Source: Promethearchaeota archaeon
GTDB lineage: Archaea; Asgardarchaeota; Lokiarchaeia; Sigyniarchaeales; SOKP01
Direction of reading: 5' to 3'
Assembly (NCBI GenBank): GCA_019058295.1
Contig: JAHPZI010000030.1
Location: 64,001-128,000 of the forward strand
Length of the DNA: 64,000 bases
Shown here: positions 29,808-56,173 of the stretch, one piece after another
How the letters are laid out: every line of letters begins with the position of its first letter
Numbering within the stretch: position 1 is the stretch's first letter
Notes under the pieces: generated by a model
Databases searched by the model: none
The model's input: the letters and a program-made list of their open reading frames with translations, nothing else
Told to the model about the DNA's origin: nothing
Made by a program: the position numbers and the translations under genes

Positions 29808-30335
29808 ATGTCTATGGCAAAGAAAAAATTAACCTCCAAGGAAAAAATTGATTTCACTCCTAACCTTATTTTCGCTATTCGAATAAGAGGTGCTCCAGGG
29901 ATGAAAAGAAAGATCTTGGATACGTTAAAAATGCTCAGAATGCATAAAGTAAACCACGGAGTCCTGATATGGGCTGGAAAAAGTTATAATGGAATGTTAA
30001 ATAAATGTAAAGATTATATTGCTTATGGCAAAATTGACGAGAAAACTTTAGTAAGATTATTGAGAGTCAGGGGAAGAGTTGTAGGAAATAAACCACTCAC
30101 AGATGAATATATTAAAAATATAACCGAATATAAAAATATAAAAGATTTTTCTAAAGCTTTGTTAAATGGAAAAATACAATATAACGATAAATATGTGTAT
30201 AAACTTAAACCTGTTTTTAGATTACATCCACCAAGAAAAGGTTATAGAGGATCAATTAAAAAACATTACGCTGAAGGTGGAACTCTTGGCAATGTGGGAG
30301 AATATATTAATGAATTAATTCATAAAATGTTATAA
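29808..30335 (+). CDS. rpl30p: 50S ribosomal protein uL30
   Basis: AIRIRG, DTLKMLR, KDYIAYG, KPVFRLHPPRKG; exact start uncertain. Confidence 0.95.
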   Translation: MSMAKKKLTSKEKIDFTPNLIFAIRIRGAPGMKRKILDTLKMLRMHKVNHGVLIWAGKSYNGMLNKCKDYIAYGKIDEKTLVRLLRVRGRVVGNKPLTDEYIKNITEYKNIKDFSKALLNGKIQYNDKYVYKLKPVFRLHPPRKGYRGSIKKHYAEGGTLGNVGEYINELIHKML

Positions 30336-30353
30336 CTAAGAAAGTGAGGAACT

Positions 30354-30818
30354 ATGAGAAAATATCCTAAAAAAATTCAAAAAATGAGAGGCACTCGCAC
30401 ATGTGGCTATGGAAGAGTAGGACAACATAGAAAAACAGGTCAACGCGCGGGGAGAGGTAAAACTACTCAATGGAAAAAAAGTAAAAGATCTTACTACTTA
30501 AAACAGAAAGAGCTAGGATTTCCAGACCCAGATTGGGTTATGGGAAAAACAGGCTTTAAGAGACCTCAGGATATGGTCCGTCTTTCCAAAGTAAATGCTA
30601 TTAATGTTAAGGATCTGGATTATAGGGTTGAAGATATAGCTAAAAAATCAGCTGATACCTATAACATAAATTTAAACGATATTAATATCCAAAAATTATT
30701 AGGTCGGGGGCAAATTAACAAAAAAATTAACGTATCCGTAAACAAAGCCTCTAAAAGGGCAATTGAAAAAATAGAAGCTGCTGGTGGTAAAGTTACGCTT
30801 CTTTCAGAATCGAAATGA
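30354..30818 (+). CDS. rpl15p: 50S ribosomal protein uL15
   Basis: RGTRTCGYG..GQHR, GKTGF, KLLGRG, AIEKIEAAGG. Confidence 0.96.
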   Translation: MRKYPKKIQKMRGTRTCGYGRVGQHRKTGQRAGRGKTTQWKKSKRSYYLKQKELGFPDPDWVMGKTGFKRPQDMVRLSKVNAINVKDLDYRVEDIAKKSADTYNINLNDINIQKLLGRGQINKKINVSVNKASKRAIEKIEAAGGKVTLLSESK

Positions 30819-30875
30819 TTAAAATTTAAAAAATTTCATTACATTTTGTTTATTTCTTTCGATTTAAATTGAAAT

Positions 30876-31514
30876 TCATGATATATCGAGCATTTTATAT
30901 ATCAATTGGATCAACATGGGTAAAATAAAAATAAATCCAAGTGTATTTCCAATTAGATGTATTGTAGTGAATGGCAATCCTATTATATAAACGGGCCAAA
31001 ATGATTCTAAAGTTCCGTAAATCACCAAAGCACCTATCAATGTAGATATAACATCATATGTGAATGTAATAAATGCCCCTGTGATTGCGAATATTATTAA
31101 AACAGGAAGAACATATAAATCTTCATCTGGTTTAAAAAATTTTTTCTTACCTAAGAAATTACACATTATTCCTCCTAAAAATCCTACTAAAGCGTAATGA
31201 ACTAATTGATAAGCAAAAAGCGGTAAAGGAGAAACTCCATATGGATTAAAAAATACAAATATAAATGAGCTCATTAATCCAACAACCACACCGTCTCTTT
31301 TACCCAATATAAAACCAGATAAGAATATCATCAATGTGAACAATTCAATATTCGGAATAAACACTAAAACATAGCCTAAAACAACCGATAAAGCAGTAAA
31401 AATCCCGAGTAACGCAACCCGGAAAGATGTTCTTTCGAGCCAAACTGTTTGACTTGTTTTTTCTTTTTCTTTTGTTATAACATTTTCTGATTTTTCTTTA
31501 GATTTTAAATCCAA
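30876..31514 (-). CDS. ECF transporter substrate-binding S component (possibly cobalamin)
   Basis: six TMs, ALLGIFTAL...IPNIELFT..IF.SG, FFNPYG, TFTYD, GLPF...H..GN. Confidence 0.75.
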   Translation of the reverse strand: MDLKSKEKSENVITKEKEKTSQTVWLERTSFRVALLGIFTALSVVLGYVLVFIPNIELFTLMIFLSGFILGKRDGVVVGLMSSFIFVFFNPYGVSPLPLFAYQLVHYALVGFLGGIMCNFLGKKKFFKPDEDLYVLPVLIIFAITGAFITFTYDVISTLIGALVIYGTLESFWPVYIIGLPFTTIHLIGNTLGFIFILPMLIQLIYKMLDIS

Positions 31515-31640
31515 AAGCTATCAACCATATGATATTTTTATTATTGTTTTTCAATTTAAATTTTCAAAATATTTTTAATAGATCTAATATTTCTTAATTT
31601 AAAAATTTATAGGAAACTTATCCTACGATAACATACATTT

Positions 31641-33542
31641 TTGTTAAATAAGGTAAAAAAATTGAGAAAACAGTTCTTATTGATAAGTTTGTTCATCTTT
31701 ACAATGGCAATCGGAGCCATAATTTTTTACTCAACACTCCAAAATAATAGAATTGAAGAAGATACTATATTTTCTTCAAATCACATATCTAAACCTAAAT
31801 CAGCTTCTATTCCTGAGAATTATAGTCAAGATTTAGATTTAGATGGTGTTTACGTATATAATGTTACTGATTTCGGTGGAACTACGAGTTGGCATAATTT
31901 TTCATCTGAAGAACCGCTTTATGGATATGAAGGAGATTGGGCGGCAGAAATTGGTGGGCAAATCAAAATTAATATTACAGGTTTTTATAATGAGGACCCA
32001 TTGTATTGGGGAGATATTTTTTATGATTCAATTCCCTGGATGGATATTGAGATCATTAAGAATGATTCAGGTGTGCCAGTGAGCAATTTTACTTTAACAA
32101 ATAGATCCAATACTGAGATATCCTATAATTTAATCCTCGGTTATAGTAGTTTTCAGCCGGGTTTTCTTATTCCTATTGATAATCTAACAAATATAAAGAA
32201 AATAGCGATAGAAGAGGTTGATAAAGCTTACTTTTCAGGGCAGTCTATTGTTGAAGAGTCTTATCATTTTCTTTATATTGGTTACGAGAACGTAGGTGGA
32301 ATGAAAACTAATATGCTTTATGACAAATCGACTGGTTTATTAGTATGGGCAAAAACCTCATTAGGTGGATATCAAATGGAAATAAGCTCGCTGAATTTTA
32401 CTTATAATTTAGATTTAACTTATAATTACACTGTAAAGGCATTTGGTGAGCCTTTTAAATGGTTTAATATGTCAGGTGATTTCAAAGGGAATGTAAATAC
32501 AACTATTAATGGTTTAGTAAGAGTTAATTTTACAGGCTACCATGATAAAGATGTTAATGATAATAGTATTTTTGAAAATCCCATTCCATGGATAGATATT
32601 GCTTTTATTGAGAATAATACTGGAATTTTAAATACAAATTTTACACTTAATGATATATCTAATAGTGAAGCAGCACTAAATCTACACATTGGGTTTAATA
32701 ATTTTAGTTCTGGATTTCTCATTCCTACAAATAATTTAACATCTTTAAAGGAAAATGCAACACTTGAAGGATCAGGAGACCAATCAAACTATCTTCTTTT
32801 TTCAATTGAAGAAACAGGACTAACAGTTAAATTTATTTTTATTGAAACGGGAGGCGAGAATTATTCAATAACAACATATGATAAACGCACTGGTCTCTTA
32901 ATGGCGATGAGAGCAGTTTCAGGCAATTTTTTACTTGATATGGAATTAGTACTATATTATGAAGAATCAAATCCAATTCCACCACCTAATCCCTATACTA
33001 AAACTATTTATAATATTGATGTAGAGGAAAAAAAGGGAGAAAAAGAATATTCTAATTTTACAATACCATTTATACTACTTGGATGTGGCGCTGCGGCATC
33101 ATTTGGTTTGTTAGTATGGAAAAAAGAAACTAAAATGTTAAAATATTTGTTCACTGGAATTTTTGGTGCCATATGTTTTAGTTCATTGTTAGTTTTTAAT
33201 TATTGGCTTAATTCAGGTGCAGCCTCTACTGATGAGAAAAGTAATGAAACGGCTTTAGAAGTTGTAGAAGACATTACATTGATCGTAGATTTTGGAGACG
33301 GAAACATAAAGAGTTGGAAAGGTTTCACTCTTTCGGGAGGAAAAACTACTGTTTTGGATGCGCTTGATAAATATTGCGATATAAAATATGATGATTATGG
33401 TTGGGGTATTTTGGTTACTGAAATTGATGGAGTTGATGGTAAATGGATTTACGAAGTTAATGGTGAAAAACCAGGTCATGGAGCCGATAGGCATTATCTC
33501 CGTGATGGGGACACAATTAGATGGGAATTTCAAGGAAAATAA
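31641..33542 (+). CDS. membrane-anchored extracellular protein with internal domain duplication and C-terminal DUF4430 (transcobalamin-like) domain
   Basis: N-terminal TM, two ~190-aa repeats (IPWxDI...NFTL...GFLIP...YDKxTGLL), two TMs, then VDFGDG...TVLDAL...YGWGILVTEIDG...WIYEVNG...DGDTIRW. Confidence 0.7.
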   Translation: MLNKVKKLRKQFLLISLFIFTMAIGAIIFYSTLQNNRIEEDTIFSSNHISKPKSASIPENYSQDLDLDGVYVYNVTDFGGTTSWHNFSSEEPLYGYEGDWAAEIGGQIKINITGFYNEDPLYWGDIFYDSIPWMDIEIIKNDSGVPVSNFTLTNRSNTEISYNLILGYSSFQPGFLIPIDNLTNIKKIAIEEVDKAYFSGQSIVEESYHFLYIGYENVGGMKTNMLYDKSTGLLVWAKTSLGGYQMEISSLNFTYNLDLTYNYTVKAFGEPFKWFNMSGDFKGNVNTTINGLVRVNFTGYHDKDVNDNSIFENPIPWIDIAFIENNTGILNTNFTLNDISNSEAALNLHIGFNNFSSGFLIPTNNLTSLKENATLEGSGDQSNYLLFSIEETGLTVKFIFIETGGENYSITTYDKRTGLLMAMRAVSGNFLLDMELVLYYEESNPIPPPNPYTKTIYNIDVEEKKGEKEYSNFTIPFILLGCGAAASFGLLVWKKETKMLKYLFTGIFGAICFSSLLVFNYWLNSGAASTDEKSNETALEVVEDITLIVDFGDGNIKSWKGFTLSGGKTTVLDALDKYCDIKYDDYGWGILVTEIDGVDGKWIYEVNGEKPGHGADRHYLRDGDTIRWEFQGK

Positions 33543-38580: not shown

Positions 38581-38703
38581 GGCCCTTGACGGTCGGAATT
38601 GATCAAAAATTAGTTGGTCAACGATAAGTGGTCTCTGACGCTGGGCTTCAAACCCAGTTATCCTGCGGAGGGATAGGGGTTCGATTCCCCTCGAGGGCCG
38701 CCA
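38581..38703 (+). tRNA. selC: tRNA-Sec (UCA) with a 30-nt BHB intron in the D-arm (38598-38627) and encoded CCA
   Basis: 9-bp acceptor GGCCCTTGA/TCGAGGGCC + GCCA; 4-bp T-stem GGGG-TTCGATT-CCCC; anticodon arm CTGGG-CTTCAAA-CCCAG (TCA at 38648-50); long variable arm; intron removal gives the 7-bp D-stem GTCGGAG-TGGT-CTCTGAC. Confidence 0.95.
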
Positions 38704-38730: not shown

Positions 38731-40098
38731 ATGGTTGATTTTAATAAAATAAGCGAATTTTTTGAAAATTCTTCTATTCCTCAAAATATGTTAAATAGAG
38801 GTCAGATTGTTTTAGATAATTTCTTGAAACCAATAAAAATTCTATTTGAACAGAAAAGTGTGCCAAAAGAACCTTGGAGCGACGAGCAAATTGAGTTTTT
38901 ACTTCAGATTCTTTCTAATATGGATACTGATAAGGATGATAGAGCTGCTAGAGTGGGTGAAAGAGAAGCAAGAATCGCTTCTAAACTACAATTAAAAACT
39001 TCTGGTGGTTTTTGTCATGGAGTTGGTCGCTCTGGTTTTTTAACAGCTCCACAACCAAAGGCTCCGGGTGGGTCAATAATGTACGAAATCTCTAATTTTT
39101 TAGCACGAAATTTTCTAAAAAATTTTGGCTTACCTAATATTAAAAAGGCAATAGTAGTACCTCTCTGTACTGGAATGTCATTGGCATTATGCCTAGGCGC
39201 TTTAAAACCTGATTGGAATGATAATAAGTTCATAAATAAGAGAAAAGTTATACTTCCCAGAATTGACCATCAATCAATATTAAAAGCAATTGATTTAATA
39301 GGTTGTAATGTAAAGCTCGTTAATGGAAAGATTTTTGGAGATGCTGTTCGAGTTCCTATTGAGGATATTAAAAGCAATTTGGATGACAATTGTTTTGCCA
39401 TTATTTCAATTACGAGCTTTTTTCCACCGCGAGAACACGATAATATTAAAGAAATTAGCAAATTTGCGAAGGAACATGACCTTGTGCATATCATTATTAA
39501 CGCTTATGGTGTTCAAGGTATAGAATGGATGAAATTAATTCGTACTGCCATTGACGCGGGAAGAGTCGATGTGATCATTCAATCTACAGATAAGAATTTC
39601 CTTACTCCCGTGGGTGGAGCTATAATTGCATCTCCGCACGATGATTTAATCACTAAGATTAGCCATACATACGCTGGTCGTGCATCTGCAACTCCCATTG
39701 TGAATTTTTTAATTTCCACGCTTTCGTTGGGACTCACTGGTTATCAAAATCTGTTAGAGGAACAAGAAAAAAATCGTAAATTACTTGAAAAGAGATTAGT
39801 AGAGATTGCAAAAAAAATAAATGAAAGAATTTTAGAAATATATAATCCAGTTGCTGTTGCATTATCTCTTGAAAAACTAAAGAAAGAACAAATTTCCGAA
39901 TTAGGAGGGGCTCTCTATAATTTACGGGTTACTGGACCTAGAGTTTTTAATCCAGAGGATAAAAATTTTGGTATGTGCTGTGATAACTATCCCATACCAT
40001 ATATTGTAATGAACGCCTCAATAGGAGCTAAATCTAATGATATTATAACTGCAATCGAAAGATTTGAAAAAGCTTATGAACAAATAATTAAGAAATAA
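38731..40098 (+). CDS. spcS: O-phosphoseryl-tRNA(Sec) selenium transferase SepSecS
   Basis: MDTDKD...VGEREAR, HGVGRSG...QPKAPG, TGMSL, NAYGVQ, QSTDKNF..PVGG, YAGRA. Confidence 0.96.
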   Translation: MVDFNKISEFFENSSIPQNMLNRGQIVLDNFLKPIKILFEQKSVPKEPWSDEQIEFLLQILSNMDTDKDDRAARVGEREARIASKLQLKTSGGFCHGVGRSGFLTAPQPKAPGGSIMYEISNFLARNFLKNFGLPNIKKAIVVPLCTGMSLALCLGALKPDWNDNKFINKRKVILPRIDHQSILKAIDLIGCNVKLVNGKIFGDAVRVPIEDIKSNLDDNCFAIISITSFFPPREHDNIKEISKFAKEHDLVHIIINAYGVQGIEWMKLIRTAIDAGRVDVIIQSTDKNFLTPVGGAIIASPHDDLITKISHTYAGRASATPIVNFLISTLSLGLTGYQNLLEEQEKNRKLLEKRLVEIAKKINERILEIYNPVAVALSLEKLKKEQISELGGALYNLRVTGPRVFNPEDKNFGMCCDNYPIPYIVMNASIGAKSNDIITAIERFEKAYEQIIKK

Positions 40099-40897: not shown

Positions 40898-40951
40898 GAA
40901 AAAGCTAATCCTTTTTTTTCCAATAAACTGGGCGATAAAAAAAGTATAAAA

Positions 40952-41134
40952 TGGTCCATCGGGGATTCGAACCCCGGATCTCAGGTTTTTACTAGAATCA
41001 GACGAGTTATCAATATTTATTTTATGTCTGACGGCCACTTATAAGACCTGCGCTTGTTGACCAAGCTTTTTTAAAACCTGTTAACCAATTCAGAGGGTGA
41101 AATAAATTTTCACTATTGGCTGAGCTAATGGACC
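40952..41134 (-). tRNA. tRNA-Ile (UAU) with three introns (41088-41117, 41056-41081, 40987-41038)
   Basis: minus strand: acceptor GGTCCAT/ATGGACC+A, T-arm CGGGG-TTCGAAT-CCCCG, anticodon stem CAGGT/ACCTG with loop CT-TAT-AA (TAT at 41043-41041); removing three BHB-like inserts gives a 75-nt tRNA with D-arm GCTC-AGCCTGGTTA-AAGC; D-loop intron boundaries less certain. Confidence 0.82.
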
Positions 41135-56037: not shown

Positions 56038-56173
56038 GCAACGGTTGCCTAGCCTGGTACGGCGCTGGCTTGGAGAGGATAAATAAAAAATTACCAAATA
56101 GCCAGTGTGCTCTGCACTCGGGGGTTCGAAGTTTCTATCCATTTCGCAAGAAACGAAATTCCCTCCCGTTGCG
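56038..56173 (+). tRNA. tRNA-Ser (GGA) with two BHB introns (56076-56099 at 37/38; 56131-56159 in the T-loop at 59/60)
   Basis: acceptor GCAACGG/CCGTTGC+G, anticodon stem CTGGC/GCCAG with GGA at 56072-74, long variable arm GTGC-TCT-GCAC; BHB central helices TTGG/CCAA and TTCG/CGAA with 3-nt bulges; mature length 83 nt. Confidence 0.92.

What the first reader, a model, noticed from the sequence alone, without database searches (positions are those of the whole stretch)
40952..41134. tRNA-Ile with the rare UAU anticodon
Seen: the anticodon loop is CU-UAU-AA after removing a 52-nt intron (central helix UUAU/GUAA, inner helices UGG/CUA and UCAGAC/GUCUGA), and the body is Ile-like with discriminator A. 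Established: most archaea read AUA with a CAU tRNA modified to agmatidine by TiaS, whereas eukaryotes use tRNA-Ile(UAU), which is usually intron-containing. Inference: eukaryote-like AUA decoding in an Asgard archaeon, possibly with loss of tiaS and intron-dependent anticodon modification.
Basis: partly seen in the sequence, partly recalled or inferred. Interest (0 to 1): 0.7.

Follow-up and report, generated by a model that had tools for sequence, protein, structure and literature searches.

The report
Three-intron Asgard tRNA-Ile(UAU), no TiaS
This is a real isoleucine tRNA gene, hidden from standard finders by three introns, that reads the very common AUA codon with a UAU anticodon in a Loki-type Asgard archaeon whose family lacks TiaS, the enzyme most archaea need for AUA; a few other archaea are already known to do this.

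Summary
Window 41134-40952 (minus strand) encodes a tRNA whose spliced anticodon loop is CUUAUAA. A 30-nt and a 26-nt intron lie in the D-loop, separated by a 6-nt micro-exon. The 52-nt intron lies next to the anticodon. ARAGORN and Rfam miss the gene, yet the spliced 75-nt product is called tRNA-Ile(UAU).

Orthologues with an invariant CUUAUAA loop, always carrying the anticodon intron, occur in all 21 relatives parsed. They also occur in 86 further Asgard-labelled species genomes. The intron fold shows compensatory changes.

The TiaS domain is found in 0 of 118 genomes of this family and in none of ten other Asgard families. It is found in 156 of 333 Asgard genomes overall. AUA is the ninth commonest codon (34 per 1000).

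So UAU-based AUA decoding with tiaS loss is well supported. "Eukaryote-like" is only an analogy, because Nanoarchaeum, Korarchaeum and ARMAN do the same. Intron-dependent anticodon modification remains untested. Whether a tRNA-Ile2(CAU) is absent could not be settled.

This scan has already reported the same trait on other Asgard genomes. A second, intronless tRNA-Ile(UAU) sits in a 27-tRNA array on another contig.

The parts
40952..41134 (-). Complete tRNA-Ile(UAU) gene, 183 nt: four exons and three introns. CCA is not encoded.
   Evidence: Read directly from the sequence. The spliced 75-nt product is called tRNA-Ile(tat) by ARAGORN.
41118..41134 (-). Exon 1 (GGUCCAUUAGCUCAGCC): acceptor 5' strand, U8 A9, D-stem 5' strand, D-loop up to C17.
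   Evidence: It is collinear with orthologues that lack D-loop introns (G020, G010, G019, G018 and family f2).
41088..41117 (-). Intron 1, 30 nt, in the D-loop (17/17a). The central helix UCAG/CUGA is flanked by 3-nt bulges, and the flanking helices are weak.
   Evidence: An intron at the same site with the same helix occurs in G021, G017 and G014, and is absent from same-genus G003 and G004.
41082..41087 (-). Exon 2, a 6-nt micro-exon (UGGUUA): G18 G19 and the rest of the D-loop.
41056..41081 (-). Intron 2, 26 nt, between A21 and A22. The central helix is UGGU/GUCA with bulges UA|A and AC|A, the inner helix has 8 bp, and the outer helix is weak.
   Evidence: It is the top-scoring candidate of my bulge-helix-bulge (BHB) scan. 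The same intron in same-genus G003 has all the helices of a strict hBHBh' motif when read by hand.
41039..41055 (-). Exon 3 (AAGCGCAGGUCUUAUAA): D-stem 3' strand, G26, anticodon stem 5' strand, anticodon loop.
   Evidence: CTTATAA is invariant in 17 of 17 aligned family members.
41041..41043 (-). Anticodon UAU (positions 34-36).
40987..41038 (-). Intron 3, 52 nt, at 38/39 (equivalent to 37/38). The central helix is U33-U36 with GUAA and the inner helix is UGG/CUA. The 3' bulge has only 2 nt, opposite C32, so the BHB is relaxed.
   Evidence: For the fold, 94.7% of cells are paired against 33-46% when the partners are slid, and 6 pairs show compensatory change.
40997..41032 (-). Conserved hairpin inside intron 3 (stem GUCAGAC/GUCUGAU, 22-nt A/U-rich loop beginning AUAAA).
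   Evidence: Four of 6 stem pairs covary. The loop motif GAC-NN-ACA is present in 16 of 17 relatives, and this copy has AAA. GACA is retained.
40952..40986 (-). Exon 4: anticodon stem 3' strand, variable loop AGAUC, T arm, acceptor 3' strand, discriminator A73.
   Evidence: (the T arm is the only part Infernal sees).
40937..40951 (-). T-rich stretch (UUUUAUACUUUUUUU) directly after A73, a likely archaeal oligo-T terminator.
   Evidence: Sequence. The terminator role is inferred from the known behaviour of archaeal RNA polymerase.

Best explanation

The proposed pathway is as follows. The primary transcript carries three endonuclease-type introns: two in the D-loop and one beside the anticodon. 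The archaeal splicing endonuclease cuts them at bulge-helix-bulge (BHB)-like folds; two EndA-domain genes are present, which suggests the broad-specificity alpha-beta form. RtcB joins the exons. CCA is added after transcription. The 75-nt product is charged by IleRS and reads AUA through U34 (probably modified) pairing with A.

Shown here: the gene structure, the anticodon, conservation, covariation, absence of TiaS from the family, and heavy AUA use. Inferred: splicing in vivo, charging with Ile, the state of U34, and how AUG misreading is avoided.
For: - Removing the three inserts gives a 75-nt cloverleaf that ARAGORN calls tRNA-Ile(tat). Removing only the two D-loop inserts gives Ile(tat) with a 52-nt intron.
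- Orthologues lacking each D-loop intron are collinear at the predicted junctions.
- The CUUAUAA loop is invariant in 17 of 17 family members. The intron-3 fold is 94.7% paired against 33-46% for slid controls, with 6 compensatory pairs, and 0 of 500 shuffles reach the observed covariation score.
- All 86 further species-level loci that I could parse keep an anticodon intron of 44-60 nt, with 82 distinct sequences.
- Single-intron orthologues exist in closed genomes of the sister family. Multi-intron ones exist in three other TiaS-less Asgard families.
- TiaS (PF08489) was found in 0 of 118 genomes of this family and in none of 10 other families. It was found in 156 of 333 Asgard genomes at E 1e-14 to 1e-46, and the archaeal controls are positive.
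- ATA makes up 34.1 per 1000 codons and 33.5% of Ile codons, and is the ninth commonest codon.
- Two EndA-domain genes are present.
- RtcB is present in 5 of 5 near-complete relatives.
- The accessory 27-tRNA array also covers AUA with a UAU tRNA and holds only one CAU tRNA.
- By direct reading, the tRNA has A73, A37, A38, U12:A23 and C4:G69. These match isoleucine identity elements as I recall them for E. coli, so this point rests on memory.
Against: - There are no expression, splicing or modification data.
- The BHB folds of introns 1 and 3 are weak or relaxed. My motif scan finds as many BHB-like candidates in shuffled sequence (26 against 22 +/- 7), so the junctions rest on comparison with relatives, not on the motif.
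- RtcB is missing from this 79%-complete assembly.
- I found no chromosomal tRNA-Ile(GAU) or any Met tRNA to compare with. Isoleucine identity therefore rests on the anticodon and a few recalled identity elements.
- A hidden CAU tRNA cannot be excluded.
- A second tRNA-Ile(UAU) in the array could share or take over the job.
Confidence: 0.85

Rival explanations
1. The chromosomal three-intron gene is redundant in this strain. The intronless tRNA-Ile(UAU) of the 27-tRNA array on contig C22 would be the main AUA decoder, and the chromosomal copy a minor or conditional one.
For: The array encodes an intronless Ile(UAU) next to Ile(GAU) and Met(CAU), and covers all 20 amino acids. It needs no splicing.
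Against: The chromosomal gene is the conserved one, present across the family and order with purifying selection on both exons and intron fold. The array tRNAs have a different acceptor stem and T arm (AGGAGUG...), so they look like an accessory set. I did not measure how widely the array is distributed.
Confidence: 0.1
2. AUA is also, or mainly, read by a hidden tRNA-Ile2(CAU) whose C34 is modified by an enzyme unrelated to TiaS. The UAU tRNA would then be an auxiliary.
For: Hidden intron-laden CAU genes must therefore exist.
Against: The TiaS domain is absent from 118 of 118 family genomes. No alternative archaeal enzyme is known. Look-alikes of the same arm with CAU were all chance hits or a tRNA-Leu. 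The accessory array has only one CAU tRNA. Published TiaS-less archaea lack tRNA-Ile(CAU) (PMC3239211).
Confidence: 0.04
3. The locus is a decaying tRNA pseudogene, interrupted by insertions that are not spliced.
For: Standard finders miss it. Two of the three BHB folds are imperfect.
Against: All stems of the spliced product are intact. The anticodon loop is invariant and the stems covary across genera. Insert boundaries coincide exactly with intronless orthologues. The exons are 53% G+C in a 30% G+C genome.
Confidence: 0.02

Closest known systems
tRNA-Ile(UAU) of ARMAN-2, -4 and -5 (Fujishima et al. 2011, PMC3239211)
   Same: It is an archaeal tRNA-Ile with a UAU anticodon and an intron beside the anticodon, in genomes lacking both TiaS and tRNA-Ile(CAU). 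The intron is cut by a broad-specificity splicing endonuclease.
   Different: ARMAN has one 25-nt intron in a strict hBHBh' motif and an epsilon2 endonuclease. Here there are three introns, including two in the D-loop around a 6-nt exon. The BHB at the anticodon is relaxed, there are two separate EndA-domain genes, and the lineage is different (Asgard).
tRNA-Ile(UAU) of Nanoarchaeum equitans and Candidatus Korarchaeum cryptofilum (PMC6000648; cited in PMC3575796)
   Same: They are rare archaeal UAU isoleucine tRNAs in TiaS-less genomes, and the Korarchaeum gene also carries an intron.
   Different: Those were the only two cases among 167 archaeal genomes and were treated as species-specific gains. 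Here the trait is fixed across whole Asgard families (0 of 118 with TiaS).
Eukaryotic tRNA-Ile(UAU) with the anticodon Psi-A-Psi (yeast Pus1; Cyanidioschyzon merolae three-intron gene, PMC9602550)
   Same: It has a UAU anticodon and an always-retained intron that pairs with the anticodon. In C. merolae there are likewise three introns, including one in the D arm.
   Different: In eukaryotes, intron-dependent pseudouridylation of U34 and U36 by Pus1 is demonstrated. Here no modification is known and only one TruA/Pus1-family gene is present.
Mycoplasma mobile tRNA-Ile2(UAU) (PMC3575796)
   Same: It decodes AUA with a UAU anticodon after loss of the C34-modifying enzyme.
   Different: It is bacterial and intronless, U34 is shown to be unmodified, and it relies on a specially adapted IleRS. 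None of this was tested here.

Membership tests
Archaeal tRNA-Ile(UAU) replacing the TiaS/tRNA-Ile2(CAU) system | Canonical cloverleaf tRNA with anticodon UAU after splicing | tested here: met
   The 75-nt spliced product is called tRNA-Ile(tat) by ARAGORN. The CUUAUAA loop is invariant in 17 of 17 relatives.
Archaeal tRNA-Ile(UAU) replacing the TiaS/tRNA-Ile2(CAU) system | No TiaS in the genome | tested here: met
   PF08489 gives no hit in this 79%-complete genome. It is found in 0 of 118 genomes of the family at 80% completeness or more, and in 156 of 333 in the phylum, so the search is sensitive.
Archaeal tRNA-Ile(UAU) replacing the TiaS/tRNA-Ile2(CAU) system | No tRNA-Ile2(CAU) gene | tested here: inconclusive
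   No chromosomal CAU tRNA of any kind was found in this genome or in a closed relative. The Met tRNAs are therefore also being missed, and the census is not exhaustive.
Archaeal tRNA-Ile(UAU) replacing the TiaS/tRNA-Ile2(CAU) system | Charged with isoleucine and reads AUA but not AUG | not testable with these tools
   This needs aminoacylation and decoding assays. Only A73, A37, A38, U12:A23 and C4:G69 can be read from the sequence.
Archaeal bulge-helix-bulge (BHB) tRNA introns cut by EndA | 4-bp central helix flanked by two 3-nt bulges on opposite strands, with flanking helices | tested here: inconclusive
   All three introns have the 4-bp helix at the predicted cut sites. Intron 2 has an 8-bp inner helix. 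Intron 1 has only 1-bp flanks. Intron 3 has a 2-nt 3' bulge opposite C32. The motif alone is no commoner than in shuffles. Support comes from collinearity with relatives and from covariation.
Archaeal bulge-helix-bulge (BHB) tRNA introns cut by EndA | Splicing endonuclease and ligase encoded | tested here: met
   There are two EndA-domain genes of about 200 aa. RtcB is not in this assembly but is present in 5 of 5 near-complete relatives, two of them from the same genus.
Eukaryote-type intron-dependent Psi34/Psi36 formation (Pus1) | Intron next to the anticodon that base-pairs with it | tested here: met
   U33-U36 pair with GUAA of the intron, and helix 1, which contains these four pairs together with the anticodon stem, is 98.7% paired across 17 genomes. 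The intron is present in 21 of 21 parsed orthologues and 86 of 86 further loci.
Eukaryote-type intron-dependent Psi34/Psi36 formation (Pus1) | A Pus1-type enzyme and pseudouridines at 34 and 36 | tested here: inconclusive
   There is only one PF01416 (TruA/Pus1 family) gene, as in ordinary archaea. The modifications cannot be tested here.
H/ACA-type guide element inside the intron (idea from earlier notes of this scan) | Hairpin with an internal pseudouridylation pocket, an ACA box 3' of the hairpin, and a K-turn or K-loop | tested here: not met
   The hairpin stem is continuous, with no internal loop. The conserved ACA lies inside the apical loop, not 3' of the stem. This genome's copy reads AAA at that spot. 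By inspection I saw no complementarity between the loop and the flanks of U34.

The most novel reading that the evidence does not exclude
The anticodon intron is kept in every orthologue because it is needed before splicing. By holding U33-U36 in a helix and presenting a conserved hairpin (GAC-NN-ACA loop motif), it would direct a modification of U34 and/or U36, as the intron does for Pus1 in eukaryotic tRNA-Ile(UAU). If so, the eukaryotic way of reading AUA (intron-dependent Psi-A-Psi) would already exist in Asgard archaea.
Probability: 0.15. Interest if true: 0.75.

Novelty: new member of a known kind. Interest (0 to 1): 0.4.

Why it matters
AUA is one of the commonest codons in this AT-rich genome, so its decoder is essential. 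The locus shows that a whole Loki-type family, and several other Asgard families, have dropped the usual archaeal agmatidine route and rely on a UAU tRNA. No paper in the searchable library mentions TiaS and Asgard together. It also shows how badly standard tRNA finders fail here: a three-intron gene with a 6-nt exon is invisible to ARAGORN and Rfam. The universally retained, sequence-conserved anticodon intron gives a concrete and testable handle on one question: whether intron-dependent anticodon modification predates eukaryotes. The decoding strategy itself is not new, and this scan has already reported it on other Asgard genomes.

Tried and rejected
- **Standard finders.** ARAGORN in default mode and Rfam at gathering score found nothing in the window. 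A permissive cmscan saw only the T arm.
- **Alternative anticodon arm.** CAGGU-UUUAAAA inside intron 2 would give anticodon UAA, and ARAGORN reports this as Leu when intron 2 is left in. I rejected it because relatives without intron 2 run straight from the D stem into CAGGU-CUUAUAA.
- **Alternative placement of intron 2.** Placing it earlier in the D-loop would use the second copy of the repeat as exon. I rejected this because no central helix forms there and the D-loop would be 12 nt, against 10 nt in intronless orthologues.
- **BHB scanning as evidence by itself.** It is no better than shuffled sequence (26 against 22 +/- 7 candidates).
- **Search for CAU or GAU tRNAs in this genome.** Stem/T-arm rules either found nothing or drowned in chance hits.
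- **tRNA census of a closed relative (G032) with RF00005.** It returned only 30 tRNAs and none with CAU. This is inconclusive.
- **Pattern GCGCNGGTCTTATA with one mismatch across the phylum.** The reversed-pattern control matched as often. Only exact matches and inspected loci were used.
- **BLAST of an orthologue against five TiaS-positive closed genomes**, to find a tRNA-Ile2(CAU) ancestor. It gave only chance hits and a tRNA-Ser.
- **CAU look-alikes of the same arm.** They were coding sequence or a tRNA-Leu variable arm.
- **Extra Pus1-like paralogue.** None was found.
- **H/ACA or C/D guide architecture in the intron.** It was not found. CUGA and UGAUAA in this copy are not conserved in relatives.

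Full report
**What is at the coordinates**

On the minus strand, 41134 to 40952, the sequence begins GGUCCAU-UA-GCUC-AG. It ends CGGGG-UUCGAAU-CCCCG-AUGGACC-A and is followed by a T-rich run. ARAGORN and Rfam at gathering score report no tRNA anywhere in the window. A permissive cmscan recognises only the T arm.

Within it, UUAU pairs with GUAA, UGG with CUA, and UCAGAC with GUCUGA.

**Gene structure**

Taking out the 52 nt leaves 131 nt, so more must be removed. Comparison with orthologues fetched from relatives shows two further inserts in the D-loop.

| Part | Window coordinates (minus strand) | Length | Position / sequence |
|---|---|---|---|
| Exon 1 | 41134-41118 | 17 nt | GGUCCAUUAGCUCAGCC |
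| Intron 1 | 41117-41088 | 30 nt | position 17/17a |
| Exon 2 | 41087-41082 | 6 nt | UGGUUA |
| Intron 2 | 41081-41056 | 26 nt | between A21 and A22 |
| Exon 3 | 41055-41039 | 17 nt | AAGCGCAGGUCUUAUAA |
| Intron 3 | 41038-40987 | 52 nt | beside the anticodon |
| Exon 4 | 40986-40952 | 35 nt | anticodon stem 3' strand to A73 |

Relatives with no D-loop intron (G020, G010, G019, G018 and four genomes of the sister family) read GCUC-AGNNUGGUYA-AAGC-G. This is exactly what splicing at these junctions produces.

With all three inserts removed, ARAGORN calls a 75-nt tRNA-Ile(tat) with intact stems. With only the D-loop inserts removed, it calls Ile(tat) with a 52-nt intron. The run of five A residues at the 3' end of intron 3 makes a 37/38 cut and a 38/39 cut give the same product. 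CCA is not encoded.

**Are the inserts spliceable introns?**

Each insert has a 4-bp helix in the register expected for a bulge-helix-bulge (BHB) site, with a cut after the second base of a 3-nt bulge on each strand.

- Intron 1 has UCAG/CUGA.
- Intron 2 has UGGU/GUCA plus an 8-bp inner helix.
- Intron 3 has UUAU/GUAA plus UGG/CUA.

The flanks of intron 1 are weak. The 3' bulge of intron 3 is 2 nt opposite C32, so that site is relaxed. My simple BHB scan finds as many candidates in shuffled sequence (26 against 22 +/- 7). The motif alone therefore proves nothing.

The evidence that counts is comparative. Junctions coincide with intronless orthologues. The fold of intron 3 is kept across 17 genomes of the family: 94.7% of cells are paired against 33-46% when partners are slid. 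Six pairs show changes on both sides, four of them in the inner hairpin, and no shuffle of 500 reaches the observed covariation score.

The genome has two EndA-domain genes of about 200 residues. That fits the two-subunit form known to accept relaxed and non-canonical sites. RtcB is missing from this 79%-complete assembly but is present in five of five near-complete relatives, so I read its absence as an assembly gap.

**Conservation and lineage**

BLAST finds the gene, intron 3 included, in 21 of 24 other genomes of the family. The loop CUUAUAA is invariant in all 17 aligned.

The exact 19-mer ACAAGCGCAGGTCTTATAA occurs in 87 stretches among 185,579 species genomes. All but one of the organism labels given are Promethearchaeota, Promethearchaeia or other Asgard names (the rest read only "uncultured archaeon"). 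All 86 that I could parse carry an anticodon intron of 44-60 nt, in 82 distinct sequences.

Closed genomes of the sister family have a single-intron tRNA-Ile(UAU). Three other TiaS-less Asgard families have multi-intron versions, while look-alike hits in two TiaS-positive genomes were chance. The organism is therefore an Asgard archaeon of the Loki type, and the gene is an old, fixed trait.

**TiaS and the need for an AUA decoder**

The TiaS-specific Pfam domain PF08489 is not found in this genome or in 40 relatives of the order. Among 333 Asgard genomes at least 80% complete, 156 have it at E 1e-14 to 1e-46. This family has 0 of 118, and ten other families have none, whereas others are 19/19, 65/71 and so on. 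The search is therefore sensitive, and the absence follows clade boundaries.

In 1,355 long ORFs, ATA is 34.1 per 1000 codons, one third of all Ile codons, and the ninth commonest codon. ATG is 21.6 per 1000. An AUA decoder is indispensable.

**tRNA-Ile2(CAU)**

I could not settle this. Rule-based scans found many further hidden tRNAs with 29-30-nt T-loop introns. They found no chromosomal CAU or GAU tRNA, not even an initiator. An RF00005 census of a closed relative gave 30 tRNAs, none with CAU. The Met tRNAs must therefore also be hidden, and a hidden CAU gene cannot be excluded. Without TiaS, though, it could not serve as Ile2 by any known route.

**A second UAU gene**

Contig C22 (30.3-33.3 kb) holds 27 tightly packed intronless tRNAs covering all 20 amino acids. 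They include Ile(UAU), Ile(GAU) and a single CAU tRNA. The two Ile tRNAs share an acceptor stem and T arm that differ from those of the chromosomal gene. This looks like an accessory set. It also covers AUA with UAU, which fits a TiaS-less host.

**The intron-dependent modification idea**

The anticodon intron is the only one of up to four introns that is present in every orthologue. It pairs with U33-U36. It contains a hairpin whose loop starts GAC-NN-ACA in 16 of 17 family members, and this genome alone has AAA there while keeping GACA. This points to a constraint beyond mere spliceability.

It also recalls eukaryotic tRNA-Ile(UAU), where Pus1 needs the intron to make Psi34 and Psi36 (PMC9602550). 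However, there is only one TruA/Pus1-family gene. The architecture of an H/ACA guide is not there: the hairpin has no internal pocket, there is no ACA box 3' of the hairpin, and there is no K-turn. The C/D-like words in this copy are not conserved. I therefore keep this as the novel case at about 15%, and I do not endorse the "self-guiding intron" reading in earlier notes of this scan.

**Comparison with what is known**

tRNA-Ile(UAU) in TiaS-less archaea is published for two groups:

- Nanoarchaeum and Korarchaeum, the only two cases among 167 genomes (PMC6000648).
- ARMAN-2, -4 and -5, whose 25-nt intron at 37/38 was spliced in vitro (PMC3239211).

Bacteria such as Mycoplasma mobile do the same with an unmodified U34 (PMC3575796). 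No paper in the library holds both "TiaS" and "Asgard", or both "agmatidine" and "Lokiarchae". The recent preprint on Asgard tRNA introns does not mention Ile, UAU or TiaS. Earlier follow-ups of this scan reported the same trait on other Asgard genomes.

**Verdict**

This is a genuine gene and a new member of a known kind.

Noticed in passing
window 38581-38703 (+), with 38731-40098 (+): A hidden tRNA-Sec(UCA) lies directly upstream of a SepSecS gene (PF05889, E 2.7e-115). It has an insert in the D arm, a long variable arm and an encoded CCA. Rfam sees it only as a partial hit below threshold.
   Followed up: partly
window 56038-56173 (+): A hidden tRNA-Ser(GGA) has an anticodon-loop intron and a 29-nt T-loop intron. 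ARAGORN and Rfam at gathering score both miss it. Six more tRNAs with 30-nt T-loop introns lie on other contigs.
   Followed up: partly
own genome, contig C22 about 30300-33340 (outside the window): An array of 27 intronless tRNAs in two divergent blocks covers all 20 amino acids, including Ile(UAU), Ile(GAU) and one CAU tRNA. Nearly all chromosomal tRNAs, by contrast, carry introns.
   Followed up: partly
L013:1444-1627 (G002 orthologue); L008:939-976 (G003 orthologue): In the G002 orthologue, the D-loop intron and the variable-region intron each sit in a tandem direct repeat with 28-nt spacing that copies neighbouring exon sequence (27 nt at 81% and 20 nt at 75%). In G003 there is a 15-nt repeat at 93%. 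This hints that some Asgard tRNA introns arose by local tandem duplication. No repeat is detectable in this window's copy.
   Followed up: partly
own genome G000 and closed relative G032: No initiator or elongator tRNA-Met gene could be found by ARAGORN with introns, by RF00005 or by my rule-based scans. These essential genes must be interrupted in ways that defeat all three approaches.
   Followed up: partly
own genome, C1:121142-121372 and C26:58847-59095: There are two separate genes of about 200 residues with the tRNA-intron endonuclease catalytic domain. RtcB is absent from this assembly, although relatives have it.
   Followed up: partly
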